Notes: a model not told the origin generated them from the sequence alone. DNA of 64,000 bases from a virus (IMGVR_UViG_3300028914_000071:1-64000); one strand, 5' to 3'; counted from the stretch's first letter, positions 454-16,166 are shown. Made by a program: numbers and translations.

Positions 454-1590
454 ATGTTAAAGATTCAGAACTTTATAAATGAACATGAAAATTGGCGCGA
501 ACTCTTAACAGCAGCGCCATATAACTTAAAAATTGCTGAAGATGATGGCTTCGTTATCTTTAAGTATAATCAGATTGCTTCTGACTTTAACGAAGAAATC
601 TGTCAGGAGGCTCGTGGCCTTATTCTTGACTCTAGAGATAACTTCAAGGTAGTTAGAATGGCTTTTAAGAAGTTCTTCAACCTTGGTGAATCTCATGCCG
701 CAAAAATCAATTGGGATTCTGCTGTAGCAACAGAGAAGATAGATGGTTCTATTATGTCTGTATGGCATGCTCGCGGCAAGTGGCATTTAAGCACTAACGG
801 CACTATAGACGCTTTTAAGGCTCCACTTAACGGTGTCGGCCCATACAAGAACTTTGGTGAGTTATTCACTTCTGTAATGCCATTAGAAATCTTCGATGAA
901 GAACACTTCGGTAAGAATTGGGCGGACTTAAACCTCTGCTTTACTTTCGAGTTGGTTTCTCCTTACAATAAGATTGTTATAGACTATCCTGAAACAAAGG
1001 TATACTTACTTTCTATACGTGAGATGGACACACTTCACGAAATTAGTGGCGATGTAGTTAGAGCTTTTGGTAAAATTAATGGCTTCAACCTCCCACAGGA
1101 ATACAAGTTCAGAAACGAAAAGGAATTCTGTGAACTTGTAGAGTCTATGCCGGACGGTCACGAAGGTATCGTAGTACGTGATATGTATAATGAACGTGTA
1201 AAGATAAAGACAAAGAGCTACTTTGAACTTCACCGTATGGTTAACAATGGTGTTGTAACTGTGGCAAGAATGGTTGAGTTAATTCGTGTAAATGACCATG
1301 AGGAATTTCTCGCTTACTTCCCAGAGTACAAGCCAATGTTCGATAAGGTGGCAAAGCAGTTAAAGGATGTTGAAACTCTTGTTGAAAGTGTTGAAAACTA
1401 TGTTACTGCTTGGAAGGAAATTCGCGGCGAAGACCGTAAGGAATTTGCTACTAAGATAATAGAACTGACAAAGGATAACGTACCACCTGCTTTATTCTTT
1501 GCGGCTTGGGACAATAAGATTGATTCCTTTGTGGAAAAGTTAAGCACAGAAAAGTTCATTAAGATGTTTAATATAGGAGTAGACGCATGA
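454..1590 (+). CDS. ATP-dependent RNA ligase, T4 Rnl1-like
   Basis: Nucleotidyltransferase motifs TEKIDGS (I), FTFELVSP (III), EGIVV (IV), VKIK (V); 378 aa. Confidence 0.85.
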   Translation: MLKIQNFINEHENWRELLTAAPYNLKIAEDDGFVIFKYNQIASDFNEEICQEARGLILDSRDNFKVVRMAFKKFFNLGESHAAKINWDSAVATEKIDGSIMSVWHARGKWHLSTNGTIDAFKAPLNGVGPYKNFGELFTSVMPLEIFDEEHFGKNWADLNLCFTFELVSPYNKIVIDYPETKVYLLSIREMDTLHEISGDVVRAFGKINGFNLPQEYKFRNEKEFCELVESMPDGHEGIVVRDMYNERVKIKTKSYFELHRMVNNGVVTVARMVELIRVNDHEEFLAYFPEYKPMFDKVAKQLKDVETLVESVENYVTAWKEIRGEDRKEFATKIIELTKDNVPPALFFAAWDNKIDSFVEKLSTEKFIKMFNIGVDA

Positions 1591-1826
1591 GAAAGACAGA
1601 TTATTACATTTCGCTTATTTGTTCAACATTTCTTTTATCTCTTAAAACCCTTGGTATTCCTTTTATTATAGCCGGGATATGCTTCTTTATCTTCGGCTTT
1701 AAGGAATTTCCAATGTGGATTTGGTTTTTAAGTTATGGAATCTTTGAGAACTGGAAAAGCTGTAGGTCAGCATTGAATTTGATGTTGGCTGGAATGATTA
1801 GGATGGAAGATAAAGATGGAGAATGA
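1587..1826 (+). CDS. small membrane protein
   Basis: Hydrophobic ORF, ATGA overlap with ligase stop. Confidence 0.75.
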   Translation: MRKTDYYISLICSTFLLSLKTLGIPFIIAGICFFIFGFKEFPMWIWFLSYGIFENWKSCRSALNLMLAGMIRMEDKDGE

Positions 1827-2142
1827 AATCATATATGTAGAAGACCCCAGAATGATTGCTGATTATTGCCGCTGGAATATGGAAGAACAAGTGATGTTAG
1901 CCTATATTTGTGAAGAACTCAAAGAACTTGCCGGCAAGGGCGGTGGAGAAATAGCAACTAAAGCTAAAACAAACGCAGATATAAGAATGTTAATTGAAGA
2001 ATTTAACAAAAGAAATCTTAACAACAATACAATAGTTTTTGATTCGTGTGGAGGTTGTATTTATGACGGAAGAAGAGAAGATGATGGCTCGCTTAGGAAA
2101 AATGTTTTCCCAAGAGCCACGATATACACCAAGCGAGACTGA
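1816..2142 (+). CDS. hypothetical protein
   Basis: Coupled ORF in operon. Confidence 0.8.
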   Translation: MENEIIYVEDPRMIADYCRWNMEEQVMLAYICEELKELAGKGGGEIATKAKTNADIRMLIEEFNKRNLNNNTIVFDSCGGCIYDGRREDDGSLRKNVFPRATIYTKRD

Positions 2143-2262
2143 GGATAGTATTCGCGGCATGATAATTAATATGTTAGACCACTTGGAAAAATCTAACAAC
2201 ACTTTACAAAAACCTTAATCTATGTTATAATATATATAGAAAATCAGAAAGGAGTTAATAAT

Positions 2263-2568
2263 ATGATGTCATATGAAAACTTTAATATTTTTATGAATAA
2301 ACTTATCGACAAGATGGAATGTGCTGAGGAATTTTATGATAAGGTTGACAATGCTCTTGGCAATGGTACTTGTGAATTAATTATTGAGAATAGCGGTATT
2401 TATCTCGCAGTTCAGATTCTTGCTACAGCAGTTAATGATGCGGACGATTGGATTGAATACTTCTTCTATGAAGCAGACCGAAAGCCGTTCACCGCCACAG
2501 TTGATGAAAGAGAAATTATAATCGCAAACAACAAAGACCTTTATCAGTTAATTACGGGAGTGATTTGA
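2263..2568 (+). CDS. hypothetical protein
   Basis: ORF after promoter and SD. Confidence 0.85.
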   Translation: MMSYENFNIFMNKLIDKMECAEEFYDKVDNALGNGTCELIIENSGIYLAVQILATAVNDADDWIEYFFYEADRKPFTATVDEREIIIANNKDLYQLITGVI

Positions 2569-2724
2569 TGGAAGTTTATTTAGTTTACGGCTATGATAAC
2601 GAAGGATACAGAGTTCTGTTATCTATCGCGGCTTCAGAAGAAGTGGCAGACCGACTTATATCAGAATATAAGTACGACTATCACGACTGTTTTGCACAGA
2701 TGTGGAAAGTTAAGGAGTGAGATT

Positions 2725-14015: not shown

Positions 14016-14165
14016 ATGACAGATTTTTTTGAAGCATTAGGAAATATAATTGGCATAGTAATAGTAGCTGGCGGAGCATTGGTGTTACTTTTACTCACTA
14101 TTTGGCTTGCGCTTTATCTAATTAAAGAAATTATAAATACAGTAGAAGATTTTAAAAAGAGGTAA
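14016..14165 (+). CDS. small membrane protein (49 aa)
   Basis: Promoter, SD, hydrophobic ORF below ORF-track cutoff. Confidence 0.7.
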   Translation: MTDFFEALGNIIGIVIVAGGALVLLLLTIWLALYLIKEIINTVEDFKKR

Positions 14166-14169
14166 GACT

Positions 14170-14460
14170 ATGACGACACCTTGTTTTGAAATAATTTCAG
14201 AAGACAAACTTAATCTCATGGCTACTAAAAAACTGATAGACCTTATGAGATTTTATGATTATAATTGTCCCGACTATACACATGATTGCTATTGGGGCAA
14301 TTGCAAATGCCAAAAGGCTTGTGCGGCACTTCGCCGCGAAATGGTAATGAGGATTTATACAATTCTCAAAACAAGACCACATATTCCAAATAAAGCAGAA
14401 GCTAAGAAAATAAGACAAGAACGTGCGGCTAAGAAATTTAAGACAATATCCGCAAGATAA
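14170..14460 (+). CDS. hypothetical protein
   Basis: ORF with SD GAGGT. Confidence 0.8.
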   Translation: MTTPCFEIISEDKLNLMATKKLIDLMRFYDYNCPDYTHDCYWGNCKCQKACAALRREMVMRIYTILKTRPHIPNKAEAKKIRQERAAKKFKTISAR

Positions 14461-14477
14461 TTAAGGAGGACGATATT

Positions 14478-16166
14478 ATGAGCAGAATAGCTAGAGAAAT
14501 TAAGGCAGAAAACAAGATAAAGAACACAACAGTAAACTTTATGGGCGGCAAGTCTTATACAGTTAACCCACTTGATACTCTTAAGTTGGTTGCAGCATCA
14601 TCAATCTTTGGTGAACCATCTTATTACCGTTCAAATGTAAAGGAACGTAGATATGAAATCGACCGTGCGCTTAGAGGTTTAGACATCATGTTCGGGGAGT
14701 ATGTTGGTCAGACAACTACAGAAATCTTTGAACAGGTAATCGACGACGCACTTGCCTATGATTTCGGTGCAACACTTGAATTTGCCGCAGAACTTCGTGA
14801 CACTTACAACATGAGATTAAACCCACAGGTAATCATGGTTCGTGCCGCAATCCACAGAGACAGAGCAAAGTTCACTTCTGAAAACCCTGGTGTTTTCGCG
14901 GCAATCAATGATAAGGTAATGGCTAGAGCTGATGAACCAGCAACTCAGTTAGCATACTACATCTATAAGAATGGCGGCAAGTCTAAGCTTCCATCAGTTC
15001 TTAAGAGAAGCATTGCTGATAAGCTTTCAAAGCTCGACACATACGCTGTTAACAAGTACAAGAACGCTGAAATCGGTATGATTAATGCAGTTCGTCTTAC
15101 ACACGCAAATTCTCCAGTGTTAGATGCACTCCTTAATGATAGACTTGAAGTTTCAGATTCAGACGAAACTTGGGAACAGAAACGTTCAAGAGGTATGGGT
15201 TGGAAGGAAATCTTCAACACAACAAACATGGGTCACATGGCTCTTTTAAGAAACCTCAGAAACGTATTCTCAGAACAGATAGACGTTAACTTTGCTAAGA
15301 GATACCTTAAGAAGTTAAAGGATGGCGTACTTCGCGGCAAGCAGTTCCCGTTCAGATACTACACAGCAATGGGTGTTATCGAAAAGGCAGACGTTAGCTA
15401 CAAGTCATTAATCCTTGACACTCTTGAAGAATGTATGGATATTGCTCTTGACAATATGCCAAAGTTAAAGGGTAAGACAATGTGCTTATCTGATAACAGC
15501 GGTTCTGCTTGGGGCGGTATCACATCAGAGTATGGTACAGTTACTGTTGCCGAAATCGACAACCTTTCTGCTGTAATTGCTGCAAAGCTTTCAGATGATG
15601 GTGTTGTTGGTAAGTTCGGTGACAAGTTAAAGACTTACCCAATCTCAAAGAGAAACGGTTGCTTAATCCAGGCTCAGAAGGTTAATGAAACAAAGGGTTC
15701 TGATATTGGTAAGAGCACAGAAGGTGGTATTTGGGAATTCTTAATCAACGCAATCGACAACAAGGAGTTCTATGATAACATCTTTATCTTCTCTGATATG
15801 CAGGCTGGTCACGGTTGTCTTTACGGCACACCAGAGCAGAGAAGAAAGTACCGTGACAAGGGCTTCGAAGCTGAATACCGTACTGGTTACATTGATGTTT
15901 ACAAGTTAGTTCAGGAATACCGTAGAACAGTAAACCCAAAAGTGAATGTTTTCATGGTACAGACTGCTGGCTACGATAACGTCATCTTACCAGAATACTC
16001 TTACAGAACTGCTATCCTCTCCGGATGGACAGGTAAGGAAGTAAGCTTCGCCGCAGACTTCATTGCAAAGTGGGATGAAATTGAGAACAGACAGAACGCT
16101 CCAAAGCAGAAGTCAAAGACTCAGAAGCAGTCCCAGTCAAATCTTCCACCAGTAAGATATAGATAA
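14478..16166 (+). CDS. Ro60/Rsr TROVE-domain RNA-binding protein with vWA domain
   Basis: HMALLRNLRN, QFPFRYYTA, MIDAS-type DNSGS and FSDMQ; 562 aa. Confidence 0.88.
   Translation: MSRIAREIKAENKIKNTTVNFMGGKSYTVNPLDTLKLVAASSIFGEPSYYRSNVKERRYEIDRALRGLDIMFGEYVGQTTTEIFEQVIDDALAYDFGATLEFAAELRDTYNMRLNPQVIMVRAAIHRDRAKFTSENPGVFAAINDKVMARADEPATQLAYYIYKNGGKSKLPSVLKRSIADKLSKLDTYAVNKYKNAEIGMINAVRLTHANSPVLDALLNDRLEVSDSDETWEQKRSRGMGWKEIFNTTNMGHMALLRNLRNVFSEQIDVNFAKRYLKKLKDGVLRGKQFPFRYYTAMGVIEKADVSYKSLILDTLEECMDIALDNMPKLKGKTMCLSDNSGSAWGGITSEYGTVTVAEIDNLSAVIAAKLSDDGVVGKFGDKLKTYPISKRNGCLIQAQKVNETKGSDIGKSTEGGIWEFLINAIDNKEFYDNIFIFSDMQAGHGCLYGTPEQRRKYRDKGFEAEYRTGYIDVYKLVQEYRRTVNPKVNVFMVQTAGYDNVILPEYSYRTAILSGWTGKEVSFAADFIAKWDEIENRQNAPKQKSKTQKQSQSNLPPVRYR

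What the first reader, a model, noticed from the sequence alone, without database searches (positions are those of the whole stretch)
454..16166. Candidate phage RNA repair and splicing hub: Rnl1 ligase, tRNA island, split tRNA, Y RNA-like array, Ro60 and a giant ncRNA
Seen: all of these lie co-oriented within 16 kb under sigma-A promoters. Established: T4 Rnl1 with Pnk repairs anticodon-cleaved tRNA-Lys after PrrC attack, and bacterial Ro60/Rsr binds Y RNAs and damaged tRNA and is often linked to RNA ligases. Inference: this is one anti-defence or RNA quality-control system against host anticodon nucleases, with more RNA components than I can assign to known systems.
Basis: partly seen in the sequence, partly recalled or inferred. 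Interest (0 to 1): 0.85.

Follow-up and report, generated by a model that had tools for sequence, protein, structure and literature searches.

The report
Phage tRNA island with several RNA modules

Summary
All six items are real, lie on the + strand and sit under strong sigma-70-type promoters. They are a T4-type RNA ligase 1 (454-1590), 24 tRNA genes, a tRNA split by a 71-nt tRNA-shaped insert (10378-10519), five Y-RNA-like elements (12296-13841), a Ro60/TROVE gene (14478-16166) and a giant RNA. The giant RNA is a full-length ROOL (Rfam RF03087, 293 bits).

Among 21 near-complete phages with a related TROVE gene, ROOL occurs in 4 and Rnl1 in 1.

Only TROVE and the Y-like RNAs are tightly linked. 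The handle motif occurs 220 times on the TROVE strand, against 13 on the other strand and about 2 expected by chance, and 160 of the 220 lie within 1 kb of the gene.

The split tRNA carries a mobile intron of the 'enigmatic' class noted in Lak megaphages. The window's copy is an ORF-less form of an HNH-bearing intron. Its exon stems covary, so the tRNA is still under selection.

Rnl1 belongs to a heal-and-seal kit (an Rnl2-like ligase, and a kinase-HD enzyme in the closest complete relative). That kit could repair cut tRNAs and might also seal the intron's exons; this is unproven.

This scan has already noted the Ro60-RNA arrays and the tRNA-shaped introns on other DNA.

The parts
454..1590 (+). 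T4-type RNA ligase 1 (Rnl1), 378 aa
   Evidence: PF09511 E 5e-19. T4 Rnl1 2C5U E 1e-8 over residues 33-262, with the motif I lysine conserved. 78% identical and syntenic in the complete relative G001.
5075..13914 (+). tRNA island: 23 uninterrupted tRNA genes and one split tRNA, interleaved with small ORFs and non-coding RNAs
   Evidence: ARAGORN and Rfam.
9119..9702 (+). ROOL RNA, full length, between tRNA-Leu and tRNA-Gly
   Evidence: Rfam RF03087, 293 bits, model positions 1-574 of 574. Also present at the same place in relatives L003 and L005.
10378..10519 (+). Split tRNA, most likely Lys(UUU); exons 10378-10411 and 10483-10519
   Evidence: ARAGORN intron mode. Acceptor and anticodon stems covary between the window, L003 and L005. 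The D-arm signature is shared with intron-less phage tRNA-Lys genes.
10412..10482 (+). 71-nt tRNA-shaped intron: 7-bp acceptor stem starting at its first base, D arm, tetraloop arm, T arm and a 2-nt tail
   Evidence: Rfam tRNA 36.7 bits. L005 carries the same intron with a 199-aa HNH-type ORF in the tetraloop arm, and the window keeps that ORF's last five codons and stop.
11448..12077 (+). Free-standing GIY-YIG/NUMOD1 homing endonuclease, with an in-frame TAG at 11520
   Evidence: Pfam GIY-YIG E 1e-10 and NUMOD1 when TAG is read as Gln.
12296..12383 (+). Y-like element 1, between tRNA-Glu and tRNA-Asp
   Evidence: Handle motif and both stems found.
13330..13476 (+). Y-like element 2, after tRNA-Tyr
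13482..13569 (+). Y-like element 3, before tRNA-Gly
13641..13752 (+). Y-like element 4; its cargo contains a T-arm-like hairpin
13758..13841 (+). Y-like element 5; its cargo resembles an anticodon stem-loop (loop CUGUUAA)
13920..13944 (+). Intrinsic terminator that ends the tRNA/Y-like operon
13955..13983 (+). Promoter of the TROVE transcription unit
14478..16166 (+). Ro60/TROVE ring protein with a vWA MIDAS motif, 562 aa
   Evidence: PF05731. phiLo Ro60 structures 9KOP and 9L5Y, E 3e-13. DNSGS is invariant in 15 homologues.
16172..16200 (+). Terminator after TROVE

Best explanation
This stretch is the tRNA and non-coding-RNA island of an uncultured phage of about 180 kb that reads TAG as a sense codon. 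It holds several RNA modules that are inherited independently and lie together because they share strong promoters and host tRNA-processing enzymes.

(1) About 24 tRNAs supplement translation.

(2) ROOL is the known phage RNA that assembles into a nanocage. Its function is unknown.

(3) The TROVE/Ro60 ring protein and the five Y-like RNAs form a ribonucleoprotein. The RNAs are made in the tRNA operon and are probably cut out by RNase P and RNase Z. A constant handle, an internal loop clamped by two variable helices, is the likely Ro60 binding site (inferred). The variable cargo imitates parts of tRNAs. By analogy with phage phiLo Ro60, the particle may recruit host PNPase (inferred).

(4) Rnl1, an Rnl2-like ligase just left of the window, and the kinase-HD enzyme of the complete relative form a T4-like heal-and-seal kit for broken RNA (inferred from family membership).

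(5) The split tRNA carries a decayed mobile tRNA-shaped intron that has to be removed for the tRNA to work. How it is removed is unknown.
For: Parts identified. Independent inheritance in 50 related TROVE phage records, 21 of them at least 90% complete: ROOL in 4 of 21, Rnl1 in 1 of 21, Rnl2-type ligase in 10 of 21, GOLLD in 0 of 21. GOLLD or drum RNA replaces ROOL in L006, L009 and L008. Phage G has its Rnl1-like gene 212 kb from TROVE.

Tight TROVE/Y-like link: 220 motif hits on the TROVE strand, 13 on the other strand, about 2 in shuffles. 160 hits lie within 1 kb of the ORF, and 63 of 84 loci have at least one within 2.5 kb. 172 of 204 distinct copies fold into the same two-helix frame with different helix sequences. 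Cargo with a T-arm-like hairpin occurs in 59 of 204 copies, against 0-1 in shuffles.

Published precedent: phiLo Ro60 binds two phage Y-like RNAs and host PNPase (PMC12135203). YrlA RNAs lie within 4 kb of Ro60 on the same strand in 254 bacteria and 22 phages (PMC4201824).

Repair kit. Transcription units. Intron.
Against: The closest relatives (L003, L005) keep the whole arrangement in the same order, so within this clade the parts are inherited together, and a functional connection specific to the clade cannot be excluded. In 4 of the 5 phages that have both ROOL and TROVE, the two lie 2-6 kb apart on the same strand. Many records are incomplete, so some absences are uncertain. There are no RNA or binding data for any part.
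Confidence: 0.7

Rival explanations
1. One integrated system. Ligase, tRNAs, split tRNA, Y-like RNAs, Ro60 and ROOL act together against host anticodon nucleases or as one RNA quality-control machine.
For: All parts are co-oriented within 16 kb under similar promoters, and the order is kept in L003 and L005. A bacterial operon with rsr, Y RNA genes and RtcB/RtcA is known (PMC4201824, PMC7790460). Some Y-like cargos in relatives imitate anticodon stem-loops, including 11 with a Lys(UUU)-type loop.
Against: The parts assort independently among TROVE phages: ROOL in 4 of 21 and Rnl1 in 1 of 21. Phage G separates ligase and TROVE by 212 kb. No Rnl1 lies within 10 kb of TROVE in any of the loci L005-L011. 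TROVE and the RNA operon are separate transcription units. No anticodon-nuclease link was tested.
Confidence: 0.1
2. In this phage Rnl1 serves mainly as the sealing enzyme of a protein-only tRNA splicing pathway. Host RNase P cuts at the first base of the tRNA-shaped intron and leaves a 3'-OH on exon 1. An RNase Z-type cut at the intron's 3' tail leaves a 5'-phosphate on exon 2. Rnl1 then closes the anticodon loop.
For: The intron's 7-bp acceptor stem starts exactly at the exon-intron boundary. In L004 the tRNA-Asp intron, compared with the window's intron-less allele, runs exactly from base 1 of the tRNA-like fold to ACCA. RNase P is known to cut an internal 7-bp acceptor mimic in M. smegmatis YrlA (PMC4201824). 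The expected end chemistry is what Rnl1 needs (established knowledge of RNase P, RNase Z and T4 Rnl1). Exon stems covary, so the tRNA is used. The HNH ORF sits in a peripheral loop and leaves the fold intact. All four complete genomes here that carry such an intron (G001, G009, G051, G052) have a ligase-family hit and an AAA_33 kinase.
Against: Many phages with Rnl1 at about 60% identity and 11-13 nearby tRNAs show no such intron within 10 kb. G009 has the intron but no Rnl1, only a weak, truncated Rnl2-like hit. In the window clade the tail is 2 nt rather than CCA, so canonical RNase P and RNase Z cuts would give an 8-nt loop. About half of the complete TROVE phages carry an Rnl2-type ligase anyway. 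No RNA data exist.
Confidence: 0.2
3. The split tRNA is a dead gene, disrupted by a selfish element, and has no function.
For: Phage tRNAs are often dispensable. The intron is a decayed, ORF-less copy. No splicing mechanism is known (PMC6784885).
Against: Three alleles (window, L003, L005) differ by compensatory changes in the acceptor and anticodon stems and keep a perfect cloverleaf and a seven-base loop. It is the only candidate tRNA-Lys(UUU) in an AT-rich phage.
Confidence: 0.1

Closest known systems
ROOL RNA (Rfam RF03087; Weinberg et al. 2017, PMC5737381; cryo-EM nanocage, PMC12286853)
   Same: Full-length match at three times the gathering score. It lies in a phage, inside a tRNA island, as described for the family.
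   Different: Nothing found. It is an ordinary member, and its function is still unknown.
Ro60/Rsr with Y RNAs: bacterial YrlA/YrlB (PMC4201824) and Thermus phage phiLo Ro60 with Yrl1/Yrl2 (PMC12135203)
   Same: A TROVE ring protein with a MIDAS motif. The partner RNAs are encoded within about 2.2 kb on the same strand, have paired ends, a conserved internal loop near the 5' end and tRNA-like cargo, and are co-transcribed with tRNAs, as Yrn2 is in Deinococcus.
   Different: There are five copies here, and arrays of 2-7 in relatives, against one or two in the described cases. The handle reads YGAWGCRG ... UWCUUC ... AUUC rather than GNCGAAN0-1G. No Rfam family matched at E <= 1. Binding is untested.
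T4 RNA ligase 1 with polynucleotide kinase-phosphatase (tRNA-Lys repair after PrrC cleavage)
   Same: An Rnl1-family adenylyltransferase domain with the catalytic lysine. A polynucleotide kinase is present in the complete relative.
   Different: The kinase is fused to an HD domain, not the T4 phosphatase, and lies 21 kb away in the relative. A second, Rnl2-like ligase is present. No anticodon nuclease is known for the unknown host.
'Enigmatic' tRNA introns of Lak megaphages (Devoto et al. 2019, PMC6784885)
   Same: The insert lies in the anticodon loop of a phage tRNA and itself looks like a tRNA. Related genomes differ in whether they carry it.
   Different: A different phage lineage. Here the intron is tied to an HNH homing-endonuclease ORF (inside it in L005, beside it in L004), and the window copy is an ORF-less remnant with a 2-nt tail instead of CCA.
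Group I introns in tRNA anticodon loops of bacteria and phages (PMC3984707)
   Same: Mobile, placed in the anticodon loop, and carrying homing-endonuclease ORFs in a peripheral loop.
   Different: Only about 70 nt of non-coding RNA folded as a cloverleaf. There is no group I core and no Rfam group I match.

Membership tests
ROOL RNA (RF03087) | Covariance-model score above the gathering threshold over the full model | tested here: met
   293 bits against 99.1, model positions 1-574 of 574.
ROOL RNA (RF03087) | Phage or prophage context near tRNA genes | tested here: met
   It lies between tRNA-Leu (9033-9107) and tRNA-Gly (9853-9926). The context is described in PMC12286853.
T4 RNA ligase 1 family (PF09511) | Pfam match above the curated cut-off | tested here: met
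   69.5 bits against 28.3.
T4 RNA ligase 1 family (PF09511) | Motif I lysine (KxDG) that forms the AMP adduct | tested here: met
   EKIDGS aligns with T4 TKEDGS in the match to 2C5U.
T4 RNA ligase 1 family (PF09511) | C-terminal domain that confers tRNA specificity | tested here: inconclusive
   The sequence match to T4 Rnl1 stops at residue 262. Residues 263-378 are conserved among homologues but were not compared by fold.
T4-type heal-and-seal tRNA repair | End-healing kinase/phosphatase encoded alongside the ligase | tested here: inconclusive
   Not in this contig, which is 43% complete. The complete relative G001 has a 320-aa AAA_33 kinase + HD protein that matches polynucleotide kinases.
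T4-type heal-and-seal tRNA repair | Acts against a host anticodon nuclease | not testable with these tools
   The host is unknown and no nuclease was identified.
Ro60/TROVE proteins | TROVE domain match above the cut-off | tested here: met
   PF05731, 37 bits against 23. phiLo Ro60 structures, E 3e-13.
Ro60/TROVE proteins | vWA domain with a MIDAS motif (DxSxS) | tested here: met
   D339-N-S-G-S343 is invariant in 15 homologues.
Y RNAs of the YrlA/YrlB type | Encoded within about 4 kb of the Ro60 gene on the same strand | tested here: met
   The five copies lie 0.6-2.2 kb upstream on the + strand. The same holds in 63 of 84 related loci.
Y RNAs of the YrlA/YrlB type | Paired 5' and 3' ends enclosing a conserved internal loop | tested here: met
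   172 of 204 distinct copies show both helices, with different sequences in each copy. Under my lenient rule, shuffled controls also gave about 100.
Y RNAs of the YrlA/YrlB type | GNCGAAN0-1G motif near the 5' end | tested here: not met
   The handle reads YGA(A/U)GC(A/G)G. It shares the GA(A/U)G core but not the published motif.
Y RNAs of the YrlA/YrlB type | At least one copy carries a tRNA-like module | tested here: met
   Element 4 has a T-arm-like hairpin. 59 of 204 copies in relatives have one, against 0-1 in shuffles.
Y RNAs of the YrlA/YrlB type | Bound by the Ro60 protein | not testable with these tools
   Needs pull-down or gel-shift experiments.
tRNA-shaped ('enigmatic') phage tRNA introns | Insert in the anticodon loop of an otherwise canonical tRNA | tested here: met
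   ARAGORN intron mode; the loop reads CTTT | insert | TAA.
tRNA-shaped ('enigmatic') phage tRNA introns | The insert itself folds like a tRNA | tested here: met
   Rfam tRNA 36.7 bits for 10412-10481 and 39.9 bits in L003.
tRNA-shaped ('enigmatic') phage tRNA introns | Related genomes differ in presence or absence | tested here: met
   tRNA-Asp is intron-less in the window and split in L004. The split tRNA's intron occurs with the HNH ORF (L005) and without it (window, L003).
tRNA-shaped ('enigmatic') phage tRNA introns | Removed from the RNA | not testable with these tools
   No transcript data. Exon covariation gives indirect support only.
Group I introns | Group I catalytic core | tested here: not met
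   No Rfam group I match at E <= 1. There are only 71 nt.
Archaeal/eukaryal protein-spliced tRNA introns | Bulge-helix-bulge motif at the splice sites, usually at position 37/38 | tested here: not met
   By inspection the insert lies at 35/36, and the junction is a 4 x 5-7 nt internal loop between two helices.

The most novel reading that the evidence does not exclude
The tRNA-shaped intron is spliced without a ribozyme and without a dedicated splicing endonuclease. Ordinary tRNA end-processing enzymes (RNase P at the intron's first base, an RNase Z-type cut at its tail) free the two exon halves, and the phage Rnl1 or Rnl2-like ligase rejoins them in the anticodon loop. The window holds substrate and ligase 9 kb apart, so this could be tested directly with one pre-tRNA and three enzymes.
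Probability: 0.25. Interest if true: 0.85.

Novelty: new variant of a known kind. Interest (0 to 1): 0.55.

Why it matters
Three of the modules are open problems. ROOL has a solved structure but no known function. Phage Ro60 particles have been studied in a single phage. The tRNA-shaped introns have no known splicing mechanism. This locus does not tie them into one machine, which prevents a wrong inference.

It does give concrete material. The Ro60 partner-RNA family has about 200 distinct copies and a defined handle. An intron series runs from an HNH-bearing form to an ORF-less remnant, and an intron-less allele fixes the exact borders. A phage carries both the intron and the ligases that could seal it. 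Each point can be tested with standard RNA biochemistry.

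Tried and rejected
- **Near-identical phage genomes.** A megablast of the whole region against 50,697 phage records found only a 60-nt tRNA match. A blastn of ROOL found nothing.
- **PHROGs.** Ten small ORFs of the island gave no match.
- **Other RNA families.** Rfam at E <= 1 found no Y RNA, ribozyme or group I intron in 1-17000.
- **PD-(D/E)XK endonuclease (PF11645).** Searched as a possible splicing nuclease. It is absent from this contig and from G001, but the control genomes did not match either, so the search says little.
- **RtcB and CCA-adding enzyme.** Absent from G000 and G001.
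- **Identity of the split tRNA.** Comparing exon bodies with 1155 tRNAs was not decisive and leaned slightly towards Arg. The D-arm signature search favoured Lys. Arg(UCU) and Gln(UUG) readings of the junction are not excluded.
- **phiLo Yrl region.** I read it for the same handle, found no clear match, and claim no equivalence.
- **Whole-record searches of ENA/Logan contigs (L006, L007, L010).** Not possible, because the records are not held.
- **GOLLD search of long records.** It scored at most 21 candidates per record, so it may have missed copies.

Full report
**What the window is.** The window is the first 64 kb of a 77.5-kb IMG/VR viral contig judged 43% complete. No close relative exists among 50,697 deposited phage genomes. 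The closest related record is a 180.6-kb contig with terminal repeats (G001, loci L003 and L093). Its TROVE protein is 82% identical and its Rnl1 78% identical to those of the window, and the gene order is the same. The TROVE protein is 53% identical to gp540 of Bacillus phage G. Thousands of homologues come from metagenomes, and one is labelled Oscillospiraceae.

**Checking the observation.** All six items are present.
- The ORF at 454-1590 matches the T4 RNA ligase 1 family (PF09511, E 5e-19). It aligns to the T4 Rnl1 structure with the motif I lysine in place.
- ARAGORN finds 23 tRNAs between 5075 and 13914, all on the + strand.
- The giant RNA at 9119-9702 is a full-length ROOL RNA, 293 bits against a threshold of 99.
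- The ORF at 14478-16166 carries a TROVE domain and an invariant DNSGS MIDAS motif. Its best solved relative is the Ro60 of Thermus phage phiLo.
- Eleven near-consensus extended -10 promoters lie at or downstream of position 2203, all on the + strand.
- Strong terminators sit right after tRNA-Thr (13920-13944) and after TROVE (16172-16200). The RNA operon and the TROVE gene are therefore neighbouring but separate transcription units.

**The Y-like array.** Five elements (from about 12296, 13330, 13482, 13641 and 13758) share one frame: outer helix, GA(A/T)GCA(G/T), inner helix, T(T/A)CTTC, a variable cargo, the return of the inner helix, a loop ending in TTC, and the return of the outer helix.

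The strict 5' motif was counted in 84 loci around TROVE homologues of 48-90% identity, 1.54 Mb in all. It occurs 220 times on the TROVE strand, 13 times on the other strand, and 0-4 times in shuffled sequence. Of the 220 hits, 160 lie within 1 kb of the TROVE ORF, and 63 of 84 loci have at least one within 2.5 kb. Phage G has six copies directly upstream of gp540.

Of 204 distinct copies, 172 show both helices, and the helix sequences differ from copy to copy. My helix rule was lenient, because shuffled controls gave about 100, so the case rests on the positional and strand statistics and on the listed pairings. Cargo contains a T-arm-like hairpin in 59 of 204 copies, against 0-1 in shuffles. 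About 37 copies have an anticodon-stem-loop-like hairpin, 11 of them with a Lys(UUU)-type loop.

This fits what is known. YrlA-type Y RNAs lie within 4 kb of Ro60 on the same strand in 254 bacteria and 22 phages, mimic tRNAs, and can be co-transcribed with tRNAs (PMC4201824). The phiLo phage Ro60 binds two phage-encoded Y-like RNAs and host PNPase (PMC12135203). The handle differs from the published GNCGAAN0-1G motif, and no Rfam family matched. I therefore treat this as a variant of the known kind, not a proven member.

**The split tRNA.** In intron mode ARAGORN reads 10378-10519 as a tRNA with a 71-nt insert at 10412-10482. The insert scores as a tRNA in Rfam. Its 7-bp acceptor stem begins at its first base.

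The same split gene occurs in L003 and L005. The exon stems differ by compensatory changes, for example anticodon-stem pairs A-T to G-C and A-T to T-A, and acceptor pair C-G to T-A. This argues that the outer tRNA is still used.

The junction can be read as Lys(UUU), Arg(UCU) or Gln(UUG). Body similarity was not decisive. The D-arm signature is shared mostly with intron-less phage tRNA-Lys genes, 5 of 8, and Lys(UUU) is otherwise missing from the island, so Lys is favoured.

In L005 the same intron holds a 199-aa ORF with an HNH-type CANCH motif, inserted in the tetraloop arm. The window retains that ORF's last five codons and stop, so the two forms differ by a clean 640-bp indel, and the window copy is the ORF-less form.

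L004 is a near-identical strain. There tRNA-Asp, which is intact in the window at 12384-12456, is split by a different 70-nt insert, with a homologous HNH gene just upstream (Pfam HNH_2). Comparing the two alleles fixes the borders without ambiguity. The insert runs from base 1 of a 7-bp acceptor stem to ACCA, between anticodon positions 35 and 36.

Inserts in L011 (Glu, Gly), L111/L112 and L025/L026 follow the same rule. Relatives also have larger inserts that carry PD-(D/E)XK ORFs.

Such tRNA-like introns were reported as 'enigmatic' in Lak megaphages, without a mechanism (PMC6784885). I was led to that paper by earlier notes of this scan, which has met this intron class repeatedly on other DNA.

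**The ligase and its companions.**
- L092, a contig 99% identical to the window, extends 5.7 kb further left. It carries an Rnl2-like ligase, 84% identical to that of G001 (PF09414).
- G001 also has a 320-aa protein with an AAA_33 kinase domain and an HD domain. It matches polynucleotide kinases, including Clostridium thermocellum Pnkp and T4 Pnk.
- The clade therefore has the parts of a heal-and-seal kit, as T4 does.
- RtcB and a CCA-adding enzyme were not found.

**Testing the one-system idea.** I searched the whole records behind 50 TROVE loci, 21 of them at least 90% complete.
- ROOL is present in 4 of the 21.
- Rnl1 is over the cut-off in 1 of the 21, the closest relative. A second weak hit falls on an Rnl2-type gene.
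- An Rnl2-type ligase is present in 10 of the 21.
- GOLLD is present in 0 of the 21. That search may be incomplete, and Rfam did find GOLLD next to TROVE in L006 and L009 and drum RNA in L008.
- In phage G the Rnl1-like gene is 212 kb from TROVE.
- No Rnl1 lies within 10 kb of TROVE in L005-L011.
- Conversely, Rnl1 homologues at about 60% identity sit in many phages of about 180 kb whose flanks show tRNAs but no tRNA-shaped intron.

Only the TROVE/Y-like pair is constant. One caveat remains. In 4 of the 5 phages with both ROOL and TROVE, the two lie 2-6 kb apart on the same strand. Both are known or shown to sit in tRNA islands, so I cannot separate a functional link from a shared address.

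**How it most likely works.** Shown: the identity of the parts, their transcription layout, the TROVE/Y-like linkage, the mobility and borders of the introns, and selection on the split tRNA.

Inferred:
- The Y-like RNAs are released by tRNA-processing enzymes, bind the TROVE ring through the handle, and present tRNA-like cargo, perhaps together with host PNPase.
- Rnl1, the Rnl2-like ligase and kinase-HD repair broken RNA.
- The intron is removed at the RNA level.

The RNase P plus RNase Z plus ligase model for intron removal is chemically coherent, and the exact borders support it. It is weakened by the 2-nt tail in this clade, which would give an 8-nt loop after canonical cuts. It is also weakened by G009, which has an intron but no Rnl1, and by the lack of any RNA data. 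I put it at about 0.2-0.25.

**Verdict.** The locus is a composite of one known RNA (ROOL), one variant of a known ribonucleoprotein (Ro60 with a modular Y-like array), one member of a barely described intron class, and a T4-like ligase kit. It is a good test bed, not a new integrated system.

Noticed in passing
window 11448-12077; L011:2403-2816: The GIY-YIG/NUMOD1 homing endonuclease upstream of tRNA-Ala is open only if the TAG at 11520 is read as a sense codon. The intron-borne PD-(D/E)XK ORF of relative L011 has three in-frame TAGs. No CUA-anticodon tRNA was seen in the window.
   Followed up: partly
window 7991-8230, 10087-10377, 12688-12791, 12937-13246: These ORF-free gaps between tRNAs have no Rfam match. 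Their predicted folding is more stable than dinucleotide shuffles (z -3.2, -1.7, -2.4, -2.75), and they are conserved at 77-92% in L003 and L005. They may be further unassigned non-coding RNAs.
   Followed up: partly
L005:8481-9006; L011:2338-2876; L094:19923-20468; L103:17859-18442: Relatives have tRNA genes split in the anticodon loop by inserts of 440-510 nt that consist almost entirely of a PD-(D/E)XK (PF11645) ORF flanked by a short terminal helix. This is a second kind of ORF-bearing tRNA insert.
   Followed up: partly
L111:4438-4588; L025:15174-15335: ARAGORN calls these Gln(UUG) with an intron after G36. If the intron is taken as a 7-bp acceptor stem plus ACCA at 35/36, as in the allele-verified Asp case, both read CTTT|TAA, which is Lys(UUU). 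Automatic anticodon calls for such split genes may therefore be wrong.
   Followed up: partly
L006:8084-8567; L009:1117-1586; L008:14387-14516: Relatives with TROVE at about 60% identity carry GOLLD RNA or drum RNA in their tRNA islands, where this phage has ROOL.
   Followed up: partly
L173:1181-2185 (G009): In a complete 170-kb TROVE phage, an ORF with a PARP-type ADP-ribosyltransferase catalytic domain (E 4e-23) lies between a truncated Rnl2-like ligase ORF and an AAA_33 kinase ORF.
   Followed up: no
window 11197-11399: Three near-identical strong promoters stand in tandem, 84-90 bp apart, in front of the homing endonuclease and the second tRNA/Y-like operon.
   Followed up: no
window 1834-2183 against L092: A 99%-identical strain lacks these 349 bp, which cover most of the small ORF 1816-2142 just downstream of Rnl1.
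   Followed up: no
window 4810-4976: A 33-39-bp tandem repeat lies inside the small ORF 4718-4966 and encodes a Glu/Thr-rich repeat.
   Followed up: no
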